Virus record (IMG/VR): IMGVR_UViG_3300029813_000255
Location: 1 to 64,000 of that record
Length of the DNA stretch: 64,000 nt
From: a virus
Strand: one strand, 5' to 3'
Under the pieces are notes generated by a model that saw only the letters and a program-made list of their open reading frames with translations, ran no database searches and was not told the origin of the DNA. The position numbers and the translations under genes were made by a program. Shown here piece by piece: positions 1-10,325 of the stretch; positions within the stretch are counted from its first letter, which is position 1; every line of letters starts with the position of its first letter.

Positions 1-126
1 AACGAAAAAGAAAAAATCGAGAAAATCCGACGAGAAGGAGGAGTTTATGATTTCAAATACGGACAATATATAATTGATGAAATTCATAATATCACGATAA
101 TGTATATGGAAGTGTATAAAGAATGA
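1..126 (+). CDS. Hypothetical protein, 5'-truncated
   Basis: Frame 1 is open from base 1 to TGA at 124-126, overlapping the next ATG (ATGA). Confidence 0.5.
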   Translation, partial: NEKEKIEKIRREGGVYDFKYGQYIIDEIHNITIMYMEVYKE

Positions 127-431
127 TAAGAAATCTAACATCAGAGCAGAAAGAAGAATTAATTGAGAGACTTGCTAAATTAGAGCATGAACAGTGGGTA
201 GAATGGGGTAAAAGTATTGCGCCTGAGTTGGTAGAACTTAGAGATGCTGCTTCAATTCCTCTTGTTAAGGATTTTTTAGTATTAAAGACAACTGAGCGGT
301 TACAGCGTTGGAATAGTTTTTGGGTTTCATACGAGGACTTGAATGAAAAAATAAAGGAACGAGACAGAGTATGGGCAAGGAAAGTTTTACATATATTTGA
401 AGAACTGAATATGGAAATTTTATCAAGATGA
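123..431 (+). CDS. Hypothetical protein
   Basis: 102 aa ORF, ATGA-coupled; EH..W...Y..L.E..KE.DR pattern. Confidence 0.65.
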   Translation: MIRNLTSEQKEELIERLAKLEHEQWVEWGKSIAPELVELRDAASIPLVKDFLVLKTTERLQRWNSFWVSYEDLNEKIKERDRVWARKVLHIFEELNMEILSR

Positions 432-658
432 AAAGAAAACCATTTAGATACATGGAATGTAAACGTTCTCAAATGACTGTTAGAGAACTAAAAAGGATAT
501 TAAAGAACTATCACGATGATACCGTCATTTATGTAGAACCAGAAAACTCTGCTAATAAAGGTGATACTCTTTGGGCACAGAAAGTTTTGGATTCGTATTG
601 CTGTGAAAAAAGAATAGGAAAAGAAGACGCTTTAATGCTTGTGGGAGATATAAAATGA
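428..658 (+). CDS. Hypothetical protein (MTVREL-type small viral protein)
   Basis: Coupled ORF in the + strand gene run. Confidence 0.55.
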   Translation: MKRKPFRYMECKRSQMTVRELKRILKNYHDDTVIYVEPENSANKGDTLWAQKVLDSYCCEKRIGKEDALMLVGDIK

Positions 659-800
659 AGAAATATCCACGAATTAAAACACATAAAGATCAAGTTTTGA
701 TAGTAATGGTGTTAGACGAAAAAGGAACAGCGACAACGGATTACTATTCTTTGAAAGAAATAAGGCAAATACTCAAAGAACAAAAAGAGGAAGATGAAAA

Positions 801-1088
801 ATGAAAATAATATGTGAAACTTGTAACCATGAGTTTGAAGGTGAAGAATGGATGAAACAATGCTACGATTGTTACAAAAACTTTAAAGGACAAAAGAGAA
901 TAAGTATAGTAAGAGAAGAACGGTCCATAGGCATAGTAATATTATCACATCCGACTTGTACAAAGAAGGAAATTGACGAATATATAAAAAAGAGATTTGG
1001 CTCTGTTAATACTCCTGAGAATTGGGGTGCTGTTGAAGTAACAGGTAAGAATCAAAAGGTGTGGTGGAACTGTCAGAATAGTGATTGA
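801..1088 (+). CDS. Zn-ribbon protein
   Basis: CETC...CYDC at the N-terminus. Confidence 0.6.
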   Translation: MKIICETCNHEFEGEEWMKQCYDCYKNFKGQKRISIVREERSIGIVILSHPTCTKKEIDEYIKKRFGSVNTPENWGAVEVTGKNQKVWWNCQNSD

Positions 1089-1106
1089 GAATAGTGGGTG
1101 ATATAA

Positions 1107-1349
1107 ATGGAAAAGAGACGCTCAGTAATTATGTCAATAGTAGTAATTATAGGGTGTTTAAGTATAATCGAGGGTATAGGGGTTCTTTTTGCTGATATTG
1201 TCTTTGCAAGGTTTCTTTTTGGTCTTGGAGTTTTTACAGGAATGATGATTTTATGGCTTGCTGATGTTTTTACATATATAATTCTAACAAGCAAAACTAA
1301 ACAAAATGAACCTAATATCAATAGACAAGCAAACCAAAGAAGCAAATAG
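1107..1349 (+). CDS. Small membrane protein
   Basis: Two hydrophobic segments; GGGTGA RBS. Confidence 0.55.
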   Translation: MEKRRSVIMSIVVIIGCLSIIEGIGVLFADIVFARFLFGLGVFTGMMILWLADVFTYIILTSKTKQNEPNINRQANQRSK

Positions 1350-2073
1350 TTGGCTCAAAACGTGGAAACGTCAAAAAAAGAAAGCATTGATTCTTCACGG
1401 TCATGTAGGCACAGGTAAAACTACTTTGGCATATCAGATAGCAGAGCAGCACAATTATGGTGTAGTAGAGTTTAACGCTTCTGATTTGAGAAACAAGGAG
1501 TTTATGCAGAAATTGAAGAAACTCTCGTTACAGAGTTCTTTTGAACCTACGCTTATACTATTAGACGAGTGCGATACCTTGGAATCTCGAATAAACGATC
1601 TTAAAGGTGTTATAGAAAAAACACAAAAACCTATTATTCTTACCACAAATTATTACGGTAAACTTTCAGGTGTAAACAAGGTTTGCAAGTCAATTCGATT
1701 CTACAAACCAAAACTATCTGACTTGAGTAAGTTGGAAGGGTCAGATTTAGCTAAGCTATCTGAGTCTGGAGCAAGTGATTTTAGGCAGGCTGTTGCTGTT
1801 GGACAGGGTTCACAGGGATATATTTCTACCTCAGAAAGCAAGCGAGACAGGCTTACTGAGATGATTAGGAGTGGACATTATGAGAAATTGGATGTGGTAG
1901 ATGTAGTGTTTTTGTTGGATTCATCCACCGAACTATATGGATTTTCATTATACGAGTGGATAAAAGCATTGCAGTGTAGGGATGTATGTGGTAGAGATAT
2001 GGTTTTGGAAGGATTAAGACCAGAGATGGAAATAAAGGAGTTTTTTTATAGTAAAAAAAGGATGGAGAAATGA
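1306..2073 (+). CDS. rfcL: Replication factor C large-subunit-like AAA+ ATPase (clamp loader)
   Basis: Walker A GHVGTGKT, RFC box EFNASDLR, Walker B LLDECD, sensor PIILTTN. Confidence 0.85.
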   Translation: MNLISIDKQTKEANSWLKTWKRQKKKALILHGHVGTGKTTLAYQIAEQHNYGVVEFNASDLRNKEFMQKLKKLSLQSSFEPTLILLDECDTLESRINDLKGVIEKTQKPIILTTNYYGKLSGVNKVCKSIRFYKPKLSDLSKLEGSDLAKLSESGASDFRQAVAVGQGSQGYISTSESKRDRLTEMIRSGHYEKLDVVDVVFLLDSSTELYGFSLYEWIKALQCRDVCGRDMVLEGLRPEMEIKEFFYSKKRMEK

Positions 2074-2342
2074 AAGAATGTTGGGTATGTATTGTGGAGA
2101 TTAGAGAAGACAATAAACCAGAGAGAAGTATTCCAAAGGGGTTTGATGCACCTATGCGCGGTGCAATAGAAAAAGTATTGGAAATAAATAATATAATGTA
2201 TGACCGGATAGAATCGGGATGGGGATTTCCTCCTTCGCAAGTCGGGAAACTCATTAGTACATGGACAAGATGTAATATTATTGATGATCAATTCGAGAAG
2301 GATTTAAGAGTTGGCAACAAATTAAGGAATAAAAAAGAATGA
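2070..2342 (+). CDS. Hypothetical protein
   Basis: Coupled ORF. Confidence 0.55.
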   Translation: MKECWVCIVEIREDNKPERSIPKGFDAPMRGAIEKVLEINNIMYDRIESGWGFPPSQVGKLISTWTRCNIIDDQFEKDLRVGNKLRNKKE

Positions 2343-2596
2343 AAGAAGAAGATATATATGAAGTGCGAGAAACAACTGTCAAAAGACCATTTCGATTGTA
2401 CGTAGATAATGAGTGGATAAGTAGTTATGAGACAGAAATAGAAGCGTTAAGTGGACTTAGTAGTTGGATAGCTAAGAATGGTCTTGAAAGTTTTGTGGAT
2501 GGATTGGAATATGTATTTGATAGTGCTTTTGTATGCAAAGTACTCAAGATAAAAACCGTACTAAAAGTACCAACTAAGGAGGAAGAGGAAGAATGA
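2339..2596 (+). CDS. Hypothetical protein
   Basis: Coupled ORF. Confidence 0.55.
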   Translation: MKEEDIYEVRETTVKRPFRLYVDNEWISSYETEIEALSGLSSWIAKNGLESFVDGLEYVFDSAFVCKVLKIKTVLKVPTKEEEEE

Positions 2597-3498
2597 AAGA
2601 AGAAGATATACCAAAAGAAGTTTCGGAAAGTATAAAGCGGATTAGTGAGAAGCGCTCAATACCACTTGAAAAAGTGATAGTTGAATACGAGAGAGTATTG
2701 GTGTCGGATAAAATACAAGGATGGGATGTGCCGGACATCGAAAGAGCGAAAGTTGCAGGGAAGATATTGTTCAAGGATTTTATGTTCAAGGAGCCTGTAA
2801 CGACATACTCAATGGTGATACCTATTGGAACAACCGAACCACGACTGAAAAAAGGTGCAAAGGACATTGTGGAGAATATGCGTTCAACTATGTTTGCTGC
2901 TGTTAGAGTCACTGACGAACCTTTTGAAGTGAAAGAAGTAGTTTTTAACGGAGAACAGGCAACGAGAGTTCAGGAAATACAGATGATAAGAGTGTATTCA
3001 AACGTAAAACTCTACGATAAGGGTTTCTTTATTGAGGTTGGAGACGATACAAAATTTGATAACCCGCAGAAACTTAAAAATATGTCAGAAGAAGATGTCA
3101 TAACCAAGATATGTAAGTTACCAAAACTGGACAAGCTTTCAGATGTAGTTACACATAGATCGAGGAGAGAAGATACAGGGTACATTGACAGGACTGATAT
3201 GTACCTGGTCGAGGGAATGGTGCAAAGAGGGTTTAAGAAGGGATATGCAATTAAGGACGAATCACTTGAATATGAAGAGAAATCGGTTAAGGTAGCAGGT
3301 GAAACTATTATTTTACCGCAAACCTTGACAGTTTGGGTTCCAAGCAGATTTTATAAGTGGGATGAAGATTCTGAGTTAGCTTTTTTAGGAACGATTGATA
3401 TTGGGCGACAAGATAAAAAACCCATTATGAACGCAGTACTTGCTTATCCAGTTGGTTTTGTCTGTGAGATACCTCAAGGCGGGAAGAAGGAGAAATAA
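2593..3498 (+). CDS. Putative OB-fold ssDNA-binding (RPA-like) protein
   Basis: 301 aa; helical N-terminus then beta-rich segments; lies in the replication module. Function inferred. Confidence 0.45.
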   Translation: MKEEDIPKEVSESIKRISEKRSIPLEKVIVEYERVLVSDKIQGWDVPDIERAKVAGKILFKDFMFKEPVTTYSMVIPIGTTEPRLKKGAKDIVENMRSTMFAAVRVTDEPFEVKEVVFNGEQATRVQEIQMIRVYSNVKLYDKGFFIEVGDDTKFDNPQKLKNMSEEDVITKICKLPKLDKLSDVVTHRSRREDTGYIDRTDMYLVEGMVQRGFKKGYAIKDESLEYEEKSVKVAGETIILPQTLTVWVPSRFYKWDEDSELAFLGTIDIGRQDKKPIMNAVLAYPVGFVCEIPQGGKKEK

Positions 3499-3501
3499 AA
3501 A

Positions 3502-4239
3502 ATGAGTGAAGAAAAAATAATAGATGAAGACGAATTAGATGGTTTGCTTGAAGAAGCAAAAGGAGAGAGTACAGAGCAAGCCGGGACTGTAAAAGAGCCA
3601 GAACTTGAACTTGAATTGGAGCCAGAAAGTCAGGGAGGGGAAAGTAGAGATTTGAAAGTAGAGGAAGAGCCAAGTACAGGACAAAAGGAAGTTGTACTGT
3701 CCGAAATGGTTTCTACAAATACACCAGAACAGCTACAACAGCCACGGGAAGCTATACAGCCAATAACACCGCAAACCGGATTAGTAGCACCTGTTTGTTC
3801 GGTTCAAGAATCAGTTAGGATTTTCAAGGAATTTGAGCAGGCAAAGAAAGAAATTCTTAGTGCTAAGGATGTACTGTGGATAGGAAGTGATGGAAGACCG
3901 GCAATTGAGGGAGAGGGAAGTCCACATATAAAAAGAAGTGGTTGGAGAAAGCTTGCAAGATTCTTTGGTCTGAGTTGGAATATTGAAGATATTGAAAGGA
4001 TGGATATGCGATCAGGAGGCTATATGTATAAAGTACGTGTAAAGGTATGGCATCCGGCAGGGGCTTCAGTTGTTTCTGAAGGACTGGCGTCGTCACGTGA
4101 CAAATTCTTCACGAAGGGTAATAAGATAGAACCAGCAGAAGAAAATATTGTAATGAAAGCTGAGACAGTTGCAATAAACAGAGCAATAAGTGATATATTG
4201 GGAAGTGGTGAAGTATCAGGAGAAGAGACAGTAGATTAA
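3502..4239 (+). CDS. Putative ssDNA-annealing/recombination protein (Rad52/Sak-like fold) with acidic N-terminal tail
   Basis: KRSGWRKLARFFGLS...YKVRVKV...EGLASS...MKAETVAINRAISD pattern typical of viral annealing proteins. Confidence 0.55.
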   Translation: MSEEKIIDEDELDGLLEEAKGESTEQAGTVKEPELELELEPESQGGESRDLKVEEEPSTGQKEVVLSEMVSTNTPEQLQQPREAIQPITPQTGLVAPVCSVQESVRIFKEFEQAKKEILSAKDVLWIGSDGRPAIEGEGSPHIKRSGWRKLARFFGLSWNIEDIERMDMRSGGYMYKVRVKVWHPAGASVVSEGLASSRDKFFTKGNKIEPAEENIVMKAETVAINRAISDILGSGEVSGEETVD

Positions 4240-4250
4240 AGCTTTATATA
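4238..4250 (+). promoter_or_regulatory. Archaeal BRE-TATA promoter of the RAMP cassette
   Basis: AAAGCTTTATATA. Same motif class at 15711, 29471, 32553, 41124, 42799, 52667, 55610, 61591, 63296 (+) and 15820, 25551, 28751 (-). Confidence 0.7.
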
Positions 4251-4282
4251 CTACTAACTTCTATTGTTGCATAGTGGTAAGC

Positions 4283-4465
4283 ATGAATAGTAAAGAAGTA
4301 TTGTATAAAATAAGAAGAGTGACTATATCAGAAAAGGCAAAGAAAACGTACATCGCTTTAGAAGACGAAAATGGAGAAACAGCAGGAACACTGAGTTTGA
4401 GAGGGAAGAAGGAAGGAATGATCGGAATGAAAGAAGTTAGGATATTAGGAGAGGAAGATGAGTGA
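4283..4465 (+). CDS. Small hypothetical protein, first gene of the RAMP cassette
   Basis: ATG about 30 nt after the TATA box; overlaps the RAMP gene start. Confidence 0.55.
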   Translation: MNSKEVLYKIRRVTISEKAKKTYIALEDENGETAGTLSLRGKKEGMIGMKEVRILGEEDE

Positions 4466-5003
4466 GAAGTTTAAGGTAGAAATAAGAGGAACGAGACCTT
4501 TATTGATGAATTCTCCGGCAAATATATTGGAGAATCAAACAACAAAGCGATCAAGAGAAGACATAACTCATAAAGAAGAAGCAGAAAAAGTTTTATATAA
4601 AGATAAGGATAACAAGCCAATTGTTCCTGCTCTAAATATTTTAACTTGTTTAAGAGATTCAGCAGTAAACTTTAAAGTTCCAGGTAGAGGTAAAAAGACA
4701 TTTAAGAACTTTATTTTTGCGGGATTGCGTATTGAACCAGAGCAAATCTCTATTATTTCAAGCAACGGGTGGAATGTAGATATACGAACTGTTGTGATAA
4801 ACCGAGGACGAGTTCCAAAAATAAGACCAAGATTTGATGAATGGAATTTAGAGTTTCAGATAGAAATACTCGATCCTATTATCACAGCGACAAATTTGAA
4901 GCAGATCTTAGTTGATGCCGGAAAATTTAACGGGCTACTGGATTTCAGACCTTTATTTGGTCTTTTTGAAGTGATAAAGTTCGAGAAGGTTAAAAGTGAG
5001 TAG
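4458..5003 (+). CDS. Stand-alone Cas7/RAMP-like RNA-binding protein (Vipr-like)
   Basis: Beta1 KVEIRGTRPLLMN, PIVPALNILTCLRDSA helix, RPRFDEW strand, C-terminal Gly loop AGKFNGLLDFRPLFGLFEV; adjacent pentamer array. Confidence 0.75.
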   Translation: MSEKFKVEIRGTRPLLMNSPANILENQTTKRSREDITHKEEAEKVLYKDKDNKPIVPALNILTCLRDSAVNFKVPGRGKKTFKNFIFAGLRIEPEQISIISSNGWNVDIRTVVINRGRVPKIRPRFDEWNLEFQIEILDPIITATNLKQILVDAGKFNGLLDFRPLFGLFEVIKFEKVKSE

Positions 5004-5298
5004 GGAAGATATACATATAACAAATCTGGAAGTAGTAGTAAAAGAATATCTTGATAAAAATAGAATAGATTATATATTCCAATTTCCAACCAGAACAGGT
5101 TTCGTAATAGATTTTGTTATACCGAATAAGAAAGTAGCAATAGAGGTAGATGGAAATGTTTGGCATAGTAGTAAGGAAGCAATAAAACGAGATAGGTTCA
5201 AGGATTATCAACTAAAGAAAGAAGGTTGGAAGGTGGTGAGAATCAAGGAAGAAGAGATAAATAGTTTAGATAGTTTACTCTTACCTGTTATTAGGTGA
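4996..5298 (+). CDS. DUF559/Vsr-like PD-(D/E)xK endonuclease
   Basis: IDFVIPNKKVAIEVDGNVWH...RDRFKD..LKKEGWKVVRI. Confidence 0.85.
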   Translation: MSREDIHITNLEVVVKEYLDKNRIDYIFQFPTRTGFVIDFVIPNKKVAIEVDGNVWHSSKEAIKRDRFKDYQLKKEGWKVVRIKEEEINSLDSLLLPVIR

Positions 5299-5395
5299 GC
5301 AAGGCGGAGCGTGGCGCTGCACGGCTCGGTAAGGCGATGTTCGGCTTGGCTTGGAACGGCAAAGCGGGGCGGGGTAAGGCTTGGTTTGGCATGGA
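5296..5395 (+). repeat. Array of 20 NN-GGY-type pentamers
   Basis: tgAGC aaGGC ggAGC gtGGC gcTGC acGGC tcGGT aaGGC gaTGT tcGGC ttGGC ttGGA acGGC aaAGC ggGGC ggGGT aaGGC ttGGT ttGGC atGGA. Position-4 G is invariant and 13/20 units end in GGY; GC-rich island in an AT-rich genome. Confidence 0.92.
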
Positions 5396-5430
5396 AGAGA
5401 AGGAGACATTTTTCTCCTTCTCTTATTTTA
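5395..5430 (+). terminator. Perfect 12-bp hairpin plus T-tract
   Basis: AAGAGAAGGAGA-catttt-TCTCCTTCTCTT then ATTTTA. Confidence 0.7.
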
Positions 5431-5446
5431 ATATATAAGAAATAAT

Positions 5447-5557
5447 GGGTACGAAAAACCAAGTTATCGTTGCTTGGTGTAGATAAGAAGAAATACTGGT
5501 AGTCTTATTGAAACCAACAGAGGACGCTTTGAGGAGGTGCAAACCCTCCCGTACCCA
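5447..5557 (+). ncRNA. tRNA-like structured element
   Basis: 7-bp acceptor-like stem GGGTACG/CGTACCC plus A; T-arm GGAGG-TGCAAAC-CCTCC directly before it; two inner hairpins; no canonical D or anticodon arm. Confidence 0.5.
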
Positions 5558-5563
5558 ATAAAT

Positions 5564-5800
5564 ATGAACGGAATAATGTTATACAAAGCAAAATTAGGAT
5601 TTCTTCAACTGAGAACTGCAAAAGCATTGACAAATAAACTTCAAGGAGAAGGTATTGTTAAGACTGCAAAAGTCTATCTTCCTGGAGTAGGTATCAATAC
5701 TTTTGTTGAAAATTGTTCTGAAAAGGGAAAGATTATTGTAGAGAGATACTTTAAGAATTGGACTCCGAATAAGATTGAATGGAAAGAAGAAAATGAGTGA
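5564..5800 (+). CDS. Hypothetical protein
   Basis: ORF; ATG 5564 preferred over GTG 5537, which lies inside the tRNA-like fold. Confidence 0.5.
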   Translation: MNGIMLYKAKLGFLQLRTAKALTNKLQGEGIVKTAKVYLPGVGINTFVENCSEKGKIIVERYFKNWTPNKIEWKEENE

Positions 5801-6131
5801 AAAGAGGTTTCAGTGGTACAGCTTGCCAGAAGAAGTAAGACATAAGTTAATGTGTATATCTACAGGATTTTACAATCTCAAAGATAGTGGTATGTGGATT
5901 CTTGCTCCAGCAGGGTATGAGTCAGGAGCGATTGTCATCTTGAGGACATATAGTTGTTTGTCATACGATATTTTTGTTCCCACTATTATCAATATGATGC
6001 GAGATGGAGTATTAACTGCTATTTTTCCAATCGGTATGAAAGTTGTAGATGTTGTGTTTTATCAGTTCGATAAGGACAATTCATTTCACTGTAATGCTTA
6101 TCGTAGAGCAGGATTAGAGGCGAATGAATGA
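5775..6131 (+). CDS. Hypothetical protein
   Basis: ORF coupled to primase. Confidence 0.55.
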   Translation: MNGKKKMSEKRFQWYSLPEEVRHKLMCISTGFYNLKDSGMWILAPAGYESGAIVILRTYSCLSYDIFVPTIINMMRDGVLTAIFPIGMKVVDVVFYQFDKDNSFHCNAYRRAGLEANE

Positions 6132-7105
6132 ATATAAATGGCGTTGGGTTTTTATTTTCCGTGTATCCGCGCGATATATCAATTCCGAATAGATTTAAAA
6201 AAGGTAGTTTTTATCGTAAACAAATAACTTGTGCGAGGGACTTTCAACGTTATCTATCCTTAATGAGCGGTTTATCAGTGGGAACGTACACGTCAGTTTA
6301 TGACACCGACGAGAAAGTAGTAGTGGATAAAATTGTTTTCGATTTCGATTCCAAAGATTTGATCGCAGGACTTAGAGATGTAGAGATTCTGATTGATAGA
6401 TTACACAAGCAAGATATACCGTATCTTGTTGTATTTAGCGGAAGAAAAGGATTTCATGTTTGGGGTTTGTTGAAACCAACTAAGCTACCGCGAGATGTAG
6501 CTGGATACTGTCTCGCTAACTTAGAGAGAAGTTTAATTAAAGGTTTAGATACAATTGATACACATCTAATAGGCAACGTGAGTGCAATGATTCGAGTTCC
6601 AAACACCTTGAACGATGGTAGATATTGCACTCCACTACCTTTCGAGTTCAGAAAAATGTCTCTTCAAGAGATTCTGGATTATAGCAAGACTCAACACACA
6701 ATAAACATCTTTCCAGGTGAATTCAAAACAATTCAAGAGTTAGCAGGTGATTTTAAATCTCCTCAAAGAAATAACAGAGAAGAGTTTAAAGATGAAATTA
6801 AGGTCAGTTCAGTTCCTAATATGGAAATTTTGGAAGAGCTGATTCGTCCTTGTATTATTAAAGAAATTCAAAAATCTAATCCATGTAGCACGGCGAGATT
6901 GGATTTTGTTTCGGAAATGATGTTCGCTACATTTACACCGAAACAGATTCTTGACGTTATTAGGGGATTAGATTGGGAGAATTTTGACGAACGAATGACA
7001 CAATATCAGATAAAAAAAGTCTTTGAGAAGAGATTAAAACCTTATAGTAATTCTAAGTTGAAAGAAGCGTTTGGTTGTGATAGCGATAGTTATTACTGGT
7101 GGTGA
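6128..7105 (+). CDS. priS: Archaeo-eukaryotic primase, PriS catalytic domain fused to a PriL/PriX-like C-terminal domain
   Basis: FDFDS, FSGRKGFHV, IRVPNTLN motifs; C-terminal RPCI...ENFDERMTQYQI. Confidence 0.85.
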   Translation: MNINGVGFLFSVYPRDISIPNRFKKGSFYRKQITCARDFQRYLSLMSGLSVGTYTSVYDTDEKVVVDKIVFDFDSKDLIAGLRDVEILIDRLHKQDIPYLVVFSGRKGFHVWGLLKPTKLPRDVAGYCLANLERSLIKGLDTIDTHLIGNVSAMIRVPNTLNDGRYCTPLPFEFRKMSLQEILDYSKTQHTINIFPGEFKTIQELAGDFKSPQRNNREEFKDEIKVSSVPNMEILEELIRPCIIKEIQKSNPCSTARLDFVSEMMFATFTPKQILDVIRGLDWENFDERMTQYQIKKVFEKRLKPYSNSKLKEAFGCDSDSYYWW

Positions 7106-7356
7106 ATAAAATGAGTATAATACTTTATTTTGTGTGTCTATATCTTCTAATAGGCTTTATAATGTCAATATACACTTTTTCAAGTACATGGAATGATATT
7201 AAGAAAGATAAGATAAGTGTTATTATAGTGAGTTTCATGTATTGCACCGTAACATGGATTCGGGTTGTTCTTAGTGGTTTTAGGCTGAGAAAGACCGTTA
7301 ACAATACGAGAAAAGGAAGAAGAAAAGATTCACTGCAAAGGGGGAAACAAAAATGA
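7099..7356 (+). CDS. Small membrane protein
   Basis: Two hydrophobic segments. Confidence 0.5.
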   Translation: MVNKMSIILYFVCLYLLIGFIMSIYTFSSTWNDIKKDKISVIIVSFMYCTVTWIRVVLSGFRLRKTVNNTRKGRRKDSLQRGKQK

Positions 7357-7760
7357 ATATTTTACACACTCAAATAATACTTTGTTTTATTGATTCTTTT
7401 CCACCCAACGTGATCTACAACACTCTTAAAGAGTTTGGCGTGGGCGTAAGAAAACAAGACTTTTTTGATAAGGTTCGAGAGATTAAGAATATACAGTTTG
7501 ACAAGGAAAAAGCTAAATTACTACATACACCGGTCAAATATCTCACAGAAGAGGAGAAAGAGGAGAAATATCGGTTACAGTATGATAAAATGGTAGATGA
7601 ATCGTTTAGACGGGGTCGAATTGAAAATAGAAAAGCTGCAAGGCAATTTATGAAAACAGACAATTATGAGGAGGATAGGGAGCTTATTCCAGGCGAGAAA
7701 GTAGAAGATGCTTATAACGAGATGACAAAATATTTGAAGTATGAGCAGGAGGTGAAATAA
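7353..7760 (+). CDS. Hypothetical protein
   Basis: 135 aa coupled ORF. Confidence 0.6.
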   Translation: MNILHTQIILCFIDSFPPNVIYNTLKEFGVGVRKQDFFDKVREIKNIQFDKEKAKLLHTPVKYLTEEEKEEKYRLQYDKMVDESFRRGRIENRKAARQFMKTDNYEEDRELIPGEKVEDAYNEMTKYLKYEQEVK

Positions 7761-7949
7761 ATGTTAAGAATATATGCAGTAGGATTGAAACTTGAATGTA
7801 GCGGTGTGACGTGTCTTGATTATGTGAATTTCTATCTGAAACGTTCAGATGCAGAAACAGATATAAAAGAACATAGAAAAATTGGTGAGAAAGGAGCGTT
7901 TGTTATTCCTATTGAGATTAAAGAGGAATATGAGGAGGATTTAAAATAA
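7761..7949 (+). CDS. Hypothetical protein
   Basis: GGAGGTGA RBS upstream. Confidence 0.5.
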   Translation: MLRIYAVGLKLECSGVTCLDYVNFYLKRSDAETDIKEHRKIGEKGAFVIPIEIKEEYEEDLK

Positions 7950-8114
7950 GATGTTGCAAAAATTTCGATGTGTATTAGAGTTCGATGTGCCTTACGGTAG
8001 CACTGTGGATGCAGAAGATGCGAAAAAGGAACTTAGAAAGAGAATTATTAATCGTTGTTATGCAGTCAAAATTTATGTGAATACTGTTAGAGAGATTACG
8101 GAGGAGTAATAAGT

Positions 8115-10325
8115 ATGAAAGGAATTATAATTTCTGGACACAGAAGAGGGAGTATGATAGATATTTGGCTGCGAACAGAAACCAATGAAAAACAAAAATT
8201 GACTATCAGTGATTTTTCTCCTTATTTTTATGTTTCTAATGATTTTGGAGAATATAAAGGAATCTACGGAGAATCTCTAACTAAAGTTCATACCAAGGAT
8301 CCTTCTCAGGTGAGGACTGAGAGAGAACATTACAAACGAAGTTGGGAAGCGGATATTCCTTTTGTTCGTAGAAGTTTAATTGACTTGGGTATTTACAAAG
8401 GAATAGAATTTCCTGAGAGTCCTCAATATATCTCTCAAAACGACGTAAAACCATGTAATGCGGACATTGAGCCGTTGGTTTTGTATTTGGATATTGAAAT
8501 ACTTCCAAGCGAAGGCTTTCCAACCGCTGAGAAAGCTGAAAAACCGGTTGTAAGTTTCTCTTTTAAGACCAATAAGAGTGATAAGTATTTTACATATATC
8601 TGGAGAGGGGACTTTAGGAGCGGTAGAAGAAACTATAGTAGTGAATGGGTAATATCTTATTGTGAAACCGAACAGGAACTTCTTTATGCTTTTTCAACCA
8701 TAATAGAGAAGATTCAACCAGATATTATTACAGGTTGGAATGTCATAGATTTTGACTTTGAATATCTGAGGAACAGGTTTAAGAAGTTGGATTTGCAATG
8801 GATAGACGAGAGAAGCTTTGAACTATTTGATATGCTTCAAGGTTATAAAAAGATTTTTTCGCAATCTTCATACGCACTGAAACGAGTAGCTGAGATAGAA
8901 GAGATAGCTAAGAAAGAGAATATAGAAACATTTAAAGAAGTGTCTGGCTACTATGAAACAGATATAAAGAGATTTGCTGAGTATAATAGGAGAGACGTAG
9001 AGTATGTAGCAAAGATAGATAAAAAGCATTCTTTGATAGAATATTTTCTAAATTTCAAGTGGTTGGTAGGGTTAGAAGATATTCAAAAGACTACTATAAA
9101 CTCTGTACTGATTGACACGTTGCTTCTTAGAGTAGCTAAGGAGAGAGGGATATGTTTACCGACGAAAGAGAAACATGAAGAACGCGAAAAGTACGAAGGT
9201 GCTTACGTTATGGTTGAGAAAGCGGGATTATATCAGGATACGGCTGTTTTTGACTTTAAATCATACTATCCTTATCTTATTATATCCTTCAATTTGTCAC
9301 CTGAGATTAAAGAAGGAGATTCAAAAGAAGGAATTATTCCATTTTTACTCAGGCAGTTGTTAACAGAAAAAGAGAAAATCAGTGACGAAATGCAAAAAGT
9401 ATTACCGGAAACACCTGAGTATAAGGCTCTTAAAATCCGCAAGGAAGCAACGAAGCGTGTCATTAATACTGTTTATGGGGGGACTGCTTATGTTGGTTTT
9501 AGGTTATACAAACGCGAAATAGCAGAAAAAACAACTAAGTATGGACGGGAAGGAATACAGCACTTAATATCGTTAGGTGATAAATACAATTACAAAGTAA
9601 TATTAGCGGATACAGATAGTATCTTTGCTCAAACAGAATTTGATAAGACAGAAGAGCTTTGTTCTACCTTAGAAACTGAAGTTCACAGTTATTTCCGTAA
9701 AGAGTATGGAGTAAAGATGAATTTGACGTTAGAATTTGAAAAATATATCCGAACTCTTCTTCTCACAGGTGTTAAGAAACGCTATGCAATGAGAATAAGC
9801 TATAATAACGGCGAATGTGACTATATTGAGACTAAAGGCTTTGAGAATATAAGGACTGATCAGTCTATCTTTACGAGAGATTTGTTGACAGAGTTGTTTG
9901 ATCTTATTCTCTACGATAATGATAAGAAAACGATTCAAAACTTTGTTCATGAGAAGCTGAATGAGTTTCCAAAAAGACCTCTGAGCGAGATAGGGATTAG
10001 TAGGGGGATTTCAAAACCATTTAATGAGTACAAAGCAAATACACCGCACGTGAGGGGATCAATTTATTCAAACACAAATCTCAACACTAATTTTTCACAT
10101 GGAGATAAAGTCCAGTTTTTGTGGGTCAGAGGCGTTGAAGGTTATCCACCAACTAACGTGATATGTTTCAATGAAGATACAGATTTAGCTAATTACAACG
10201 TAATAGTAGATTATGAAAGGATGAAACGTGTGTGTATTCTGGACAAGGTAACATCTATTTTGGATGCAGTTGGAATTGATTTGACTGGCAATAATAAACA
10301 GGCAACTTTTGAAAAGTTTATATAG
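8115..10325 (+). CDS. polB: Family B DNA polymerase with 3'-5' exonuclease
   Basis: ExoI YLDIE, ExoII GWNVIDFDF, ExoIII YNRRD, DFKSYYP, KRVINTVYG, ADTDS, KKRY. Confidence 0.96.
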   Translation: MKGIIISGHRRGSMIDIWLRTETNEKQKLTISDFSPYFYVSNDFGEYKGIYGESLTKVHTKDPSQVRTEREHYKRSWEADIPFVRRSLIDLGIYKGIEFPESPQYISQNDVKPCNADIEPLVLYLDIEILPSEGFPTAEKAEKPVVSFSFKTNKSDKYFTYIWRGDFRSGRRNYSSEWVISYCETEQELLYAFSTIIEKIQPDIITGWNVIDFDFEYLRNRFKKLDLQWIDERSFELFDMLQGYKKIFSQSSYALKRVAEIEEIAKKENIETFKEVSGYYETDIKRFAEYNRRDVEYVAKIDKKHSLIEYFLNFKWLVGLEDIQKTTINSVLIDTLLLRVAKERGICLPTKEKHEEREKYEGAYVMVEKAGLYQDTAVFDFKSYYPYLIISFNLSPEIKEGDSKEGIIPFLLRQLLTEKEKISDEMQKVLPETPEYKALKIRKEATKRVINTVYGGTAYVGFRLYKREIAEKTTKYGREGIQHLISLGDKYNYKVILADTDSIFAQTEFDKTEELCSTLETEVHSYFRKEYGVKMNLTLEFEKYIRTLLLTGVKKRYAMRISYNNGECDYIETKGFENIRTDQSIFTRDLLTELFDLILYDNDKKTIQNFVHEKLNEFPKRPLSEIGISRGISKPFNEYKANTPHVRGSIYSNTNLNTNFSHGDKVQFLWVRGVEGYPPTNVICFNEDTDLANYNVIVDYERMKRVCILDKVTSILDAVGIDLTGNNKQATFEKFI

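What the first reader, a model, noticed from the sequence alone, without database searches (positions are those of the whole stretch)
3502..5430. Possible RNA-guided homing (gene-drive) cassette
Seen: a DUF559/Vsr-type nuclease overlaps the RAMP gene, its stop codon is the first pentamer, and the decoded target lies only about 110-160 bp upstream of the cassette promoter. Knowledge: free-standing phage homing endonucleases cut a neighbouring conserved gene in cassette-less relatives and spread by recombinational repair, while their own allele is resistant. Inference: a RAMP-guide filament recruits the nuclease to cut the co-infecting relative beside the insertion point, driving cassette inheritance rather than only silencing.
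Basis: inference. Interest (0 to 1): 0.85.

Follow-up and report, generated by a model that had tools for sequence, protein, structure and literature searches.

The report
VIPR cassette with homing-type nuclease
An archaeal virus carries a VIPR RNA-guided system (first described in 2026) joined to a small homing-endonuclease-type nuclease, and its guide RNA spells the neighbouring recombinase gene as rival viruses without the cassette carry it, which fits an RNA-programmed homing or rival-exclusion element, although cutting is not shown.

Summary
Window 4240-5431 is a compact cassette: 63-aa ORF, Vipr (RAMP), a 100-aa DUF559/EDxHD nuclease overlapping it, and one vrRNA of 19 YNNGG units ending in a terminator hairpin. 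The system is already published as VIPR in 2026 bioRxiv preprints, including the read-two-skip-one code.

New here:
- All 37 relatives fetched with the same flanking genes lack vipr and the nuclease. One keeps a decayed guide.
- The guide matches a conserved stretch about 110 bp before the insertion point in those relatives (16 of 37 at 80% or more, best 88%). The virus's own allele matches 72% because of amino-acid changes.
- An independent virus group shows the same more sharply. Two different Vipr+DUF559 cassettes sit at one gene junction, and one guide matches empty-site relatives at 29 of 30 positions, ending 12 bp from the insertion point.
- The nuclease is a bare catalytic domain. Its closest solved relative is homing endonuclease I-Bth0305I.

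Guide-directed cutting and copy-in are inferred, not shown. I put homing or marker exclusion at about 0.5. This scan has noted the same guide-next-to-target pattern on other DNA. Verdict: new variant of a known kind.

The parts
3502..4239 (+). Left flank and target-bearing neighbour: 245-aa protein with a Rad52/Mgm101-like single-strand annealing fold in residues ~100-235
   Evidence: AlphaFold2 model with pLDDT about 90 over 100-235. Foldseek top hits are human RAD52 and yeast Mgm101, E 1e-4 to 2e-3, prob 1.00. 133 homologs found, with a highly conserved C-terminal domain.
4078..4134 (+). The virus's own, diverged copy of the vrRNA target site (codons 193-211, EGLASSRDKFFTKGNKIEP), in frame with skip bases on wobble positions
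   Evidence: 23/32 NN for guide units 1-16 and 24/38 for all 19 units. The homologous site is the best hit in nearly every relative. L195, N207 and P211 are rare at otherwise conserved columns.
4240..4273 (+). Start of the insert, with a TATA-like box TTTATATA (4243-4250) as putative cassette promoter
   Evidence: Read from the sequence. A similar AAGCTTATATACT motif heads the L005/L043 cassette. Promoter function is inferred.
4274..4465 (+). 63-aa ORF overlapping the vipr start by 8 nt; function unknown and not conserved in sister cassettes
   Evidence: No Pfam or PHROG hit. No tblastn hit in any fetched locus. Sister cassettes carry a small Zn-ribbon ORF at this position.
4458..5003 (+). vipr: 181-aa RAMP protein that should polymerise on the vrRNA
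   Evidence: The family profile hits PDB 36pp 'SUSP1 Vipr protein' at E 1.8e-21 over the full length. It hits phrog_4652 at 5e-21. Counterparts of the SUSP1 GGY-binding residues are kept: N18 for H17, R123 for R138, D162-F163-R164 for D177-W178-R179.
4996..5298 (+). 100-aa DUF559/MTES_1575 nuclease: a bare EDxHD (Vsr-like) catalytic domain, the accessory (vap-like) gene of this Vipr clade
   Evidence: Pfam hits. Nearest solved structure is 3R3P at E 6e-9 over residues 10-94, which is the I-Bth0305I catalytic domain (PMC3239194). E12, D39, D52, H57 and D66 are invariant in four cassettes. It is found next to vipr in WIN, L043, L044, L045 and L114/L115 only.
5280..5299 (+). 5' hairpin of the vrRNA (7 bp, loop GTTATT), overlapping the last codons and the stop of the nuclease gene
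   Evidence: Read from the sequence. The same hairpin, with compensatory changes, precedes the arrays in L005/L043 (two arrays), L006 and L114.
5300..5394 (+). vrRNA repeat tract of 19 YNNGG units. Units 1-16 (5300-5379) are the likely guide; the last 2-3 units (ending ..CATGG) are conserved among clade arrays and probably not guide
   Evidence: NN string: AA GG GT GC AC TC AA GA TC TT TT AC AA GG GG AA TT TT AT.
5395..5431 (+). 3' hairpin (12-bp stem, 6-nt loop) plus a U-rich run: vrRNA tail and terminator
   Evidence: It is present in both the MFE and the centroid RNA fold; the whole 171-nt stretch 5270-5440 folds with z -3.9. It is conserved in L006.
5447..5556 (+). Structured RNA element closed by a 7-bp stem; possibly part of the insert or a processing signal
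   Evidence: 83% identical in L006, directly after that locus's remnant guide. 32 predicted pairs, 4 with compensatory changes. ARAGORN and Rfam find nothing significant.
5537..6131 (+). Two small ORFs (87 and 118 aa) also absent from all fetched relatives; unclear whether they belong to the mobile unit
   Evidence: No tblastn or blastn hit in L006-L042.
6128..7105 (+). Right flank: primase-polymerase-like gene, which directly follows the SSAP gene in empty-site relatives
   Evidence: Weak Pfam DNA_primase_S hit. Synteny holds in 26 relatives, with a gap of only about 40 bp in L009.

Best explanation
This is a VIPR system of a nuclease-linked clade that behaves as an RNA-programmed homing or marker-exclusion cassette.

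Shown by sequence and comparison:
- Vipr is a true homolog of the structurally solved SUSP1 Vipr.
- The single vrRNA has the published GGY/NN architecture.
- Read by the published read-two-skip-one rule, the guide spells a conserved, in-frame stretch of the Rad52-like recombinase gene immediately upstream, as cassette-less relatives carry it.
- The virus's own allele has amino-acid changes inside the footprint.
- The cassette is an insertion polymorphism at exactly that gene junction.
- The partner gene is a bare EDxHD homing-endonuclease catalytic domain with intact active-site residues and no DNA-binding domain.

Inferred:
- In a cell co-infected by a cassette-less relative, Vipr protomers assemble on the vrRNA and the filament opens the rival's SSAP gene about 110 bp from the empty site.
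- The DUF559 nuclease, which lacks targeting of its own, cuts there.
- Recombinational repair from the cassette-bearing genome copies in the resistant allele together with the cassette. At the least, it removes the rival's allele from the progeny pool.
For: VIPR membership:
- PDB 36pp Vipr hit at E 1.8e-21.
- Pentamer arrays flank Vipr homologs in E. coli, Pseudomonas, Mycobacterium and Vibrio phages and in most of 68 IMG/VR loci.
- The code and mechanism are published.

Insertion polymorphism:
- None of 37 relatives has vipr or DUF559 anywhere in the fetched locus.
- In 26 of them the primase gene is also in view, so the junction is seen to be empty.

Target in relatives:
- The best hit in nearly every relative is the homologous SSAP site.
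- For the 16-unit guide, 16 of 37 reach 80% or more and the best is 28/32. Shuffled guides reach at most 24.
- Four protein homologs read EGVATSKDSFFTKGG, which equals guide units 2-15.

Resistant allele linked to the cassette:
- P0123 shares the rare L195/N207 allele.

Independent replicate:
- Nine relatives show an empty ATGA junction between a head-tail adaptor gene and the next gene, and two more have an unrelated 317-bp insert there.
- Two different Vipr+DUF559 cassettes, with Vipr 49% identical to each other, occupy that junction.
- One guide matches the eleven cassette-less relatives that show the site at 25-29 of 30 (median 28; shuffled guides reach at most 21), ending 12 bp before the junction.
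- Its own allele scores 24/30, with K-to-R and Q-to-G in the centre of the footprint.

Clade-wide signal:
- 6 of 8 arrays of DUF559-linked cassettes have unusually good partial self-matches, against 6 of 104 other VIPR arrays (Fisher 1e-5).
- Four of these lie in frame in the gene next to the cassette.

Nuclease:
- 3R3P (I-Bth0305I) hit at E 6e-9 and invariant E12/D39/D52/H57/D66.

Decay stage:
- L006 keeps the hairpin, 8 units and the terminator but no protein genes. This fits the loss stage of a homing-element life cycle.
Against: - No result shows that the nuclease binds Vipr, is guided by it, or cuts.
- Every VIPR tested experimentally so far acts by transcriptional silencing.
- The preprint places predicted nucleases in host-borne antiviral types, not viral ones.
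- No fetched DNA carries a perfect target for this window's guide. The best is 88%, and that figure depends on dropping the last three units after the fact.
- The own allele still matches 72%, and the mismatch tolerance of this clade is unknown.
- In L044 the partial self-matches lie about 2 kb from the cassette and are not clearly in frame.
- Tight linkage of a guide to a resistant allele would also be selected without any copy-in.
- The sample is small: five cassettes in four genomic contexts.
Confidence: 0.5

Rival explanations
1. Rival exclusion without copy-in. The VIPR-nuclease cassette destroys or silences co-infecting relatives by targeting their conserved recombinase gene. The guide sits next to the resistant allele only because selection keeps a 'poison' and its 'antidote' tightly linked under frequent recombination. 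The cassette reached its sites by ordinary illegitimate recombination.
For: - The published role of VIPR is inter-virus competition, including guides aimed at relatives.
- The guide matches relatives better than self.
- Linkage is expected for any killer-immunity pair.
Against: - The targets end 12 to about 110 bp from the exact empty junction in two unrelated virus groups. This is closer than linkage alone requires.
- Two different cassettes occupy the same junction.
- The partner is a homing-endonuclease catalytic domain.
- In viruses that recombine, a break beside a heterologous insert is expected to be repaired from the insert-bearing genome, so exclusion and homing are hard to separate.
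Confidence: 0.3
2. Two independent elements. VIPR only silences, and the DUF559 gene is a separate free-standing selfish nuclease (or a repair or anti-defence enzyme) that merely rides next to vipr.
For: - Experimentally tested VIPRs need no nuclease.
- The same genome holds a full-length Zn-ribbon-plus-EDxHD endonuclease splitting a methyltransferase gene at contig 74117-74893. This shows that the domain also works as a protein-guided selfish nuclease.
Against: - The gene is kept beside vipr in five cassettes whose Vipr proteins are only 41-60% identical, in four different genomic contexts.
- It overlaps vipr by 8 nt here, and its 3' end encodes the vrRNA 5' hairpin.
- At 96-113 aa it has no DNA-binding domain, unlike I-Bth0305I and the 258-aa paralog.
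- Partial self-matches are specific to this clade.
Confidence: 0.12
3. Autoregulation. The vrRNA binds the virus's own SSAP gene through the imperfect match and tunes its expression.
For: The partial self-match is in frame and lies next to the cassette.
Against: - The guide fits relatives' alleles better than its own in both virus groups.
- The self match is below the published 80% criterion and not above chance genome-wide.
- Own-allele differences are amino-acid changes at otherwise conserved columns, which points to escape rather than tuning.
Confidence: 0.03

Closest known systems
VIPR systems (Vipr + vrRNA + vap): Escherichia phage SUSP1 and the Pseudomonas fulva prophage. bioRxiv 10.64898/2026.04.26.720920, 10.64898/2026.04.26.720927, 10.64898/2026.10.15.759431
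   Same: - Homologous Vipr protein.
- vrRNA built of GGY/NN pentamers with a structured 3' end.
- Read-two-skip-one code with skip bases on codon wobble positions.
- Targets lie in competing viral elements, and no self hit reaches 80%.
- A small accessory gene sits beside vipr.
- Decayed or solo guides occur.
   Different: - The accessory gene is an EDxHD/Vsr-like nuclease in a virus. The preprint places predicted nucleases in host-borne antiviral types III and V.
- There is a single guide, whose 5' hairpin overlaps the nuclease stop codon.
- The target is the allele of the gene next to the cassette's own insertion point in cassette-less siblings.
- Homing is not discussed in any of the four held papers.
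EDxHD homing endonucleases, prototype I-Bth0305I (PDB 3R3P; PMC3239194), and free-standing phage homing endonucleases of the T4 Seg/Mob kind (the latter from general knowledge)
   Same: - Same catalytic fold and the same five active-site positions.
- The gene sits between conserved viral core genes.
- The recognition site lies next to the insertion point in empty alleles.
- The occupied allele differs in sequence.
- Relatives show presence, absence and decay.
   Different: - There is no protein DNA-binding domain (NUMOD or HTH).
- Specificity would come from a separate RAMP-RNA filament.
- It is not inside an intron or intein.
- Cleavage has not been demonstrated.
OMEGA systems (TnpB/IscB with omega RNA), which use RNA-guided cuts to keep or spread their transposon (from general knowledge; reviewed in PMC13565253, listed but not read)
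   Same: The logic is the same: a mobile element carries an RNA guide that directs a nuclease to the element-free allele, so that repair restores the element.
   Different: - The proteins are unrelated (RuvC or HNH single effectors, against a RAMP filament plus a Vsr-like nuclease).
- OMEGA uses a contiguous guide and is a transposon rather than a virus cassette.
- No homology was tested or is expected.
Class 1 CRISPR-Cas (Cas7 filaments with a recruited nuclease such as Cas3)
   Same: A RAMP filament on a guide RNA opens DNA and, in this reading, hands it to a separate nuclease.
   Different: - There is no CRISPR array, cas1/cas2 or Cas5/6/8.
- The RNA period is 5 nt and the DNA period 3 nt, instead of 6 nt.
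- The guide is hard-wired.

Membership tests
VIPR system | Vipr protein: minimal RAMP homologous to the characterised Vipr | tested here: met
   The profile of 62 relatives hits PDB 36pp 'SUSP1 Vipr protein' at E 1.8e-21, covering positions 3-177 of 182. The D-[W/F]-R-P G-loop motif and the thumb R-P are conserved.
VIPR system | Adjacent vrRNA of tandem YNNGG (GGY/NN) units with variable NN, on the vipr strand | tested here: met
   19 units at 5300-5394. The same caller finds arrays beside vipr in most of the 72 phage and IMG/VR loci holding a Vipr homolog (L001-L004, L043-L110), almost always on the + strand.
VIPR system | Conserved structured 3' tail after the repeats | tested here: inconclusive
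   A stable 12-bp hairpin with a U-run follows the repeats and is conserved in L006. The pseudoknot described for the SUSP1 clade was not looked for.
VIPR system | Natural targets at 80% NN or more by the 1-nt-skip rule, with skip bases on wobble positions | tested here: met
   16 of 37 relatives reach 81-88% with the 16-unit guide, all at one in-frame site. With all 19 units the best is 74%. A sister cassette's guide reaches 97%.
VIPR system | No self-target at 80% or more | tested here: met
   The best self site is 72% (16 units) or 63% (19 units).
VIPR system | Vipr-vrRNA ribonucleoprotein that binds double-stranded DNA | not testable with these tools
   Needs purification and binding assays.
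EDxHD (Vsr-like) homing endonuclease | Catalytic domain with the E/D/x/H/D active-site residues | tested here: met
   3R3P hit at E 6e-9. E12, D39, D52, H57 and D66 align with E170, D196, N208, H213 and D222 of I-Bth0305I and are invariant in four cassettes.
EDxHD (Vsr-like) homing endonuclease | N-terminal sequence-specific DNA-binding region (NUMOD/HTH) | tested here: not met
   The protein is 100 aa and consists of the catalytic domain only. It is therefore not filed as a member of that family of complete enzymes.
Homing element (functional class) | Presence/absence polymorphism at one site among relatives | tested here: met
   Window group: none of 37 relatives holds the protein genes and one keeps a remnant guide. 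Second group: 3 occupied sites, 9 relatives with the empty ATGA junction in view, and 2 with an unrelated 317-bp insert.
Homing element (functional class) | Recognition site beside the insertion point in empty alleles, with the occupied allele altered | tested here: met
   The target ends about 110 bp (window group) or 12 bp (L114 group) before the empty junction. Occupied genomes carry amino-acid changes inside the footprint.
Homing element (functional class) | Site-specific cleavage and repair-mediated copying of the element | not testable with these tools
   Needs cleavage and cross experiments.
CRISPR-Cas | CRISPR repeat-spacer array and adaptation genes | tested here: not met
   No repeat array other than the pentamers, and no further cas-like genes among the ORFs of 1-9000.

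The most novel reading that the evidence does not exclude
Vipr-vrRNA filaments serve as the DNA-recognition module of a split, RNA-programmed homing endonuclease. A bare EDxHD nuclease cuts the cassette-free allele a few to about 100 bp from the empty site. The cassette, together with a linked escape allele, is then copied into rival viruses during co-infection. This would be a natural RNA-guided gene drive in viruses of archaea and bacteria, built on a RAMP lineage argued to predate CRISPR.
Probability: 0.45. Interest if true: 0.85.

Novelty: new variant of a known kind. Interest (0 to 1): 0.7.

Why it matters
VIPR was described in 2026 as a silencing system for warfare between viruses. If the nuclease-linked viral clade works as read here, it shows three further things.

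- RAMP-RNA filaments were coupled to a DNA cutter inside viruses themselves, not only after capture by hosts.
- RNA-guided recognition has been used for homing outside the TnpB/IscB world.
- The codon-aware read-two-skip-one code lets a selfish cassette track a conserved protein motif across diverged rivals.

The idea is directly testable with three small parts: a 181-aa protein, a 100-aa nuclease and a guide RNA of about 150 nt. It could also yield a very compact programmable DNA cutter.

Tried and rejected
- **Pfam on the 181-aa, 63-aa and 245-aa proteins:** no hit.
- **Tandem Repeats Finder:** does not see the pentamers.
- **Rfam:** nothing at gathering score. At E up to 1 there were only sub-threshold matches: sR52 (E 0.069), Plastid-psbA-2 (E 0.64) and a CsrC-like match (E 0.019) over the G-rich array. 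I reject all three.
- my first guide scan was out of phase by one base and served only as an accidental null.
- **The look-up of encoding contigs:** I could not fetch the contigs that hold both a Vipr and an SSAP homolog (P0002/P0123, P0018/P0124 and others). The adjacency on the 2,238-bp contig is inferred from the lengths only.
- **IMG/VR scans:** single-protein queries with Vipr and with the SSAP gave one locus and none. The SSAP alignment gave none. An exact 14-unit guide pattern gave none.
- **Relatives of the L043 downstream gene:** only the contig itself was found, so its two in-frame neighbour matches stay unreplicated.
- **GTDB genome scan:** only two distant Vipr loci.
- **All-against-all search of 153 called arrays for 80%-or-better targets among the fetched loci:** only a few short, chance-level hits.
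- **L045 second array, and L114 first and second arrays:** no convincing target.
- **Complex prediction, Vipr + DUF559:** no verdict.
- **Sequencing runs:** no RNA holder listed. Two DNA runs of one marine-sediment sample hold only fragments. Laid at 80% likeness, these include cassette-bearing pieces and one L009-like empty junction. This is too fragmentary to use as evidence.
- **L101, L106 and L107:** their partial self-hits (P 0.03-0.14) are in the range expected by chance among 104 arrays. I did not follow them up.
- **Supplements of the VIPR preprint:** not held, so I could not tell which published type, if any, this clade belongs to.
Full report
**What is there**

On the + strand, a 245-aa gene (3502-4239) is followed by four tightly packed features:
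- a 63-aa ORF (4274-4465);
- a 181-aa ORF (4458-5003);
- a 100-aa ORF (4996-5298) that overlaps the previous one by 8 nt;
- a G-rich tract.

The 100-aa protein matches Pfam MTES_1575 (2e-12) and DUF559 (2e-8), and weakly Vsr. The 181-aa protein matches only PHROG 4652, a family of unknown function.

The tract at 5300-5394 is 19 YNNGG pentamers. It is the strongest period-5 signal in the window. A 12-bp hairpin and a U-run follow. A 7-bp hairpin at 5280-5299 precedes the first clean unit and contains the nuclease stop codon.

**It is a published system**

tblastn found distant homologs (27-31% identity) of the 181-aa protein in Felixounavirus, Pseudomonas, Mycobacterium, Gordonia and Vibrio phages. 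The four loci I opened all have pentamer arrays beside the gene.

A literature search then found the 2026 preprints on VIPR. They describe:
- a minimal RAMP protein, Vipr, that polymerises on vrRNAs made of GGY/NN repeats;
- the NN dinucleotides pairing with DNA while every third target base is skipped, usually the codon wobble base;
- use of the system in conflicts between viral elements;
- seven types, with accessory 'vap' genes.

A profile of this protein's relatives hits the deposited SUSP1 Vipr structure at E 1.8e-21 over the full length. The residues that hold the two guanines and the pyrimidine have counterparts here.

**The self site alone is weak; the relatives make it strong**

Read as NNx, the 19 dinucleotides match 4078-4134 at 24 of 38 positions. 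Another site in the genome does as well, and a third of shuffled guides reach that score.

Translated as codons, however, the guide reads x-G-V-A-T-S-x-D-S-F-F-T-K-G-G. That is essentially the consensus of 50 homologs of the neighbouring protein at exactly that place. The virus's own protein reads G-L-A-S-S-R-D-K-F-F-T-K-G-N.

I fetched 37 metagenome loci with homologs of the neighbouring gene.
- In nearly every one, the best match to the guide anywhere in the locus is the homologous site.
- The last two or three units (ending CATGG) recur at the 3' end of sister arrays and are probably not guide.
- With them removed, 16 of 37 relatives reach the published 80% criterion and the best reaches 28 of 32. 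Shuffled guides never exceed 24. The own allele scores 23 of 32.
- At the protein level, four closer homologs read all 14 consecutive codons of units 2-15.

The trimming was decided after seeing the data, so I report both figures. With all 19 units the best relative is 28 of 38 (P about 0.005).

**The cassette is an insertion polymorphism at that junction**

- No relative has vipr or the nuclease anywhere in its fetched locus.
- 29 relatives show the 301-aa gene upstream of the SSAP gene.
- 26 show the primase-polymerase gene downstream. In L009 the gap between the SSAP and primase genes is about 40 bp.
- One relative, L006, keeps the 5' hairpin, eight homologous pentamers, the terminator and the downstream structured element, but no protein genes. 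It is either a decayed cassette or a solo guide.
- The only other homolog with the rare own-type allele (L195, N207) is P0123.
- Three of the six residues that are peculiar to this virus at conserved columns fall inside the 19-codon footprint.

The neighbouring protein has a Rad52/Mgm101-like annealing fold, so the target is the rival's recombinase gene.

**The nuclease**

- Its closest solved relative is 3R3P (E 6e-9). This is the isolated catalytic domain of homing endonuclease I-Bth0305I, prototype of the EDxHD family.
- The five active-site positions are invariant in four cassettes.
- Unlike I-Bth0305I, it has no DNA-binding region.
- Among the Vipr loci I fetched, this nuclease occurs only in the closest clade: the window, L043 (the same contig as L005), L044, L045 and L114/L115. 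Their Vipr proteins are 41-60% identical to this one, and they sit in four different genomic contexts.

**Is target-next-to-cassette a rule?**

For 112 arrays I asked how good the best partial self-match within the locus is compared with shuffled guides. Six of the eight arrays from nuclease-linked cassettes rank near the top (P 0.08 or less), against six of 104 others (Fisher 1e-5).
- In L043 both guides match, in frame, the gene that starts 72 bp after the cassette. One match begins at its start codon.
- In L045 a guide matches, in frame, the last 60 bp of the upstream head-tail adaptor gene.
- L044 is less clear. Its matches lie about 2 kb away.

**An independent replicate**

IMG/VR holds 14 relatives of the L045 adaptor gene.
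- In nine of them the adaptor stop overlaps the next gene's start (ATGA), which is an empty site. Two more have an unrelated 317-bp insert, and one locus ends before the junction.
- L045 and L114/L115 carry two different cassettes at exactly that junction. Each has a Zn-ribbon ORF, vipr, vrRNAs and DUF559, and their Vipr proteins are 49% identical to each other.
- The L114 guide that follows the nuclease gene matches the adaptor 3' end of the eleven cassette-less relatives that show the site at 25 to 29 of 30 (median 28). Shuffled guides reach at most 21.
- Wobble bases vary freely among these relatives, and the target ends 12 bp before the junction.
- L114's own allele scores 24, with K-to-R and Q-to-G in the centre of the footprint.
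- L045's first guide hits the same stretch: 21-23 of 28 in the cassette-less relatives against 19 in itself.

**Reading**

Several features together are the signature of a free-standing homing endonuclease gene:
- sites a few to about 100 bp from the empty junction;
- occupied alleles altered inside the footprint;
- presence, absence and decay among siblings;
- different cassettes at one junction;
- a homing-type catalytic domain that cannot find DNA by itself.

Here the protein DNA-binding module is replaced by a Vipr-vrRNA filament. The steps from binding to cutting to copy-in are inference. Complex prediction gave no verdict, and no expression data were available.

The main rival is exclusion of competitors without copy-in, with the guide linked to its escape allele by selection. 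In recombining viruses the two are hard to separate. I give the homing or marker-exclusion reading 0.5, pure exclusion or silencing 0.3, an unrelated hitch-hiking nuclease 0.12, and autoregulation 0.03.

**Novelty**

- The system itself is already known.
- None of the four held VIPR papers mentions a virus-borne, EDxHD-linked clade whose guides point at the cassette's own empty site.
- The first preprint states that predicted nucleases occur only in host-borne antiviral types.
- Notes of this scan report the same pattern on other genomes. I used them as leads only.
- I class the finding as a new variant of a known kind.

Noticed in passing
window 5447-5556; L006 1007-1120: A structured RNA element closed by a 7-bp stem with a T-arm-like hairpin follows the vrRNA terminator. 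It is 83% identical in L006, with 4 compensatory pairs among 32. ARAGORN and Rfam do not recognise it. It could be a processing signal or part of the mobile unit.
   Followed up: partly
L006 891-1000: This relative has no vipr or nuclease. It keeps the vrRNA 5' hairpin, eight pentamers homologous to the window's first units, and the terminator, directly after the SSAP stop codon. It is a decayed cassette or a solo guide of the kind described in bioRxiv 10.64898/2026.10.15.759431.
   Followed up: partly
same contig, outside the window: G000 C1 72753-75188: A 258-aa protein (74117-74893) has N-terminal CxxC Zn-ribbon repeats and a C-terminal DUF559/EDxHD domain 36% identical to the cassette nuclease. 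It sits between two ORFs that look like halves of a DNA methyltransferase (DPPY motif upstream, FxGxG motif downstream). This looks like a classical protein-guided homing endonuclease in the same genome.
   Followed up: partly
window 3502-4239: The 245-aa protein, with no Pfam hit, has a Rad52/Mgm101-like annealing fold behind a long acidic, low-confidence N-terminus. It is widespread in archaeal-virus-like contigs; source names include Aenigmatarchaeota, Syntropharchaeia and Nanopusillus.
   Followed up: yes
L012 785-879; L024 280-369: Two short pentamer arrays (8-9 units) lie about 5 kb upstream of the SSAP gene in cassette-less relatives, with no vipr in the fetched locus. They may be solo vrRNAs.
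   Followed up: no
L045 1240-2136; L114 1009-1902; L116 3135-3998: An HNH endonuclease gene overlaps the start of the head-tail adaptor gene in some relatives and is absent from others. The adaptor gene is thus flanked by two different kinds of selfish nuclease genes.
   Followed up: no
L005 5561-5680; L045 2670-2800; L114 2445-2570: A small conserved Zn-ribbon ORF (C-x-H-C-G-H ... Y-A-T-C-P-x-C) heads the sister cassettes upstream of vipr. The window has an unrelated 63-aa ORF in that position.
   Followed up: no
L004 (Vibrio phage 1.266.O) 1819-1888, 2631-2800; L114 3318-3392, 3693-3772: Non-canonical repeat units occur: GCA/NN in the Vibrio phage and WGT/NN in L114. The strict YNNGG caller misses them. 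The WGT/NN array is the one with the 29/30 target.
   Followed up: partly
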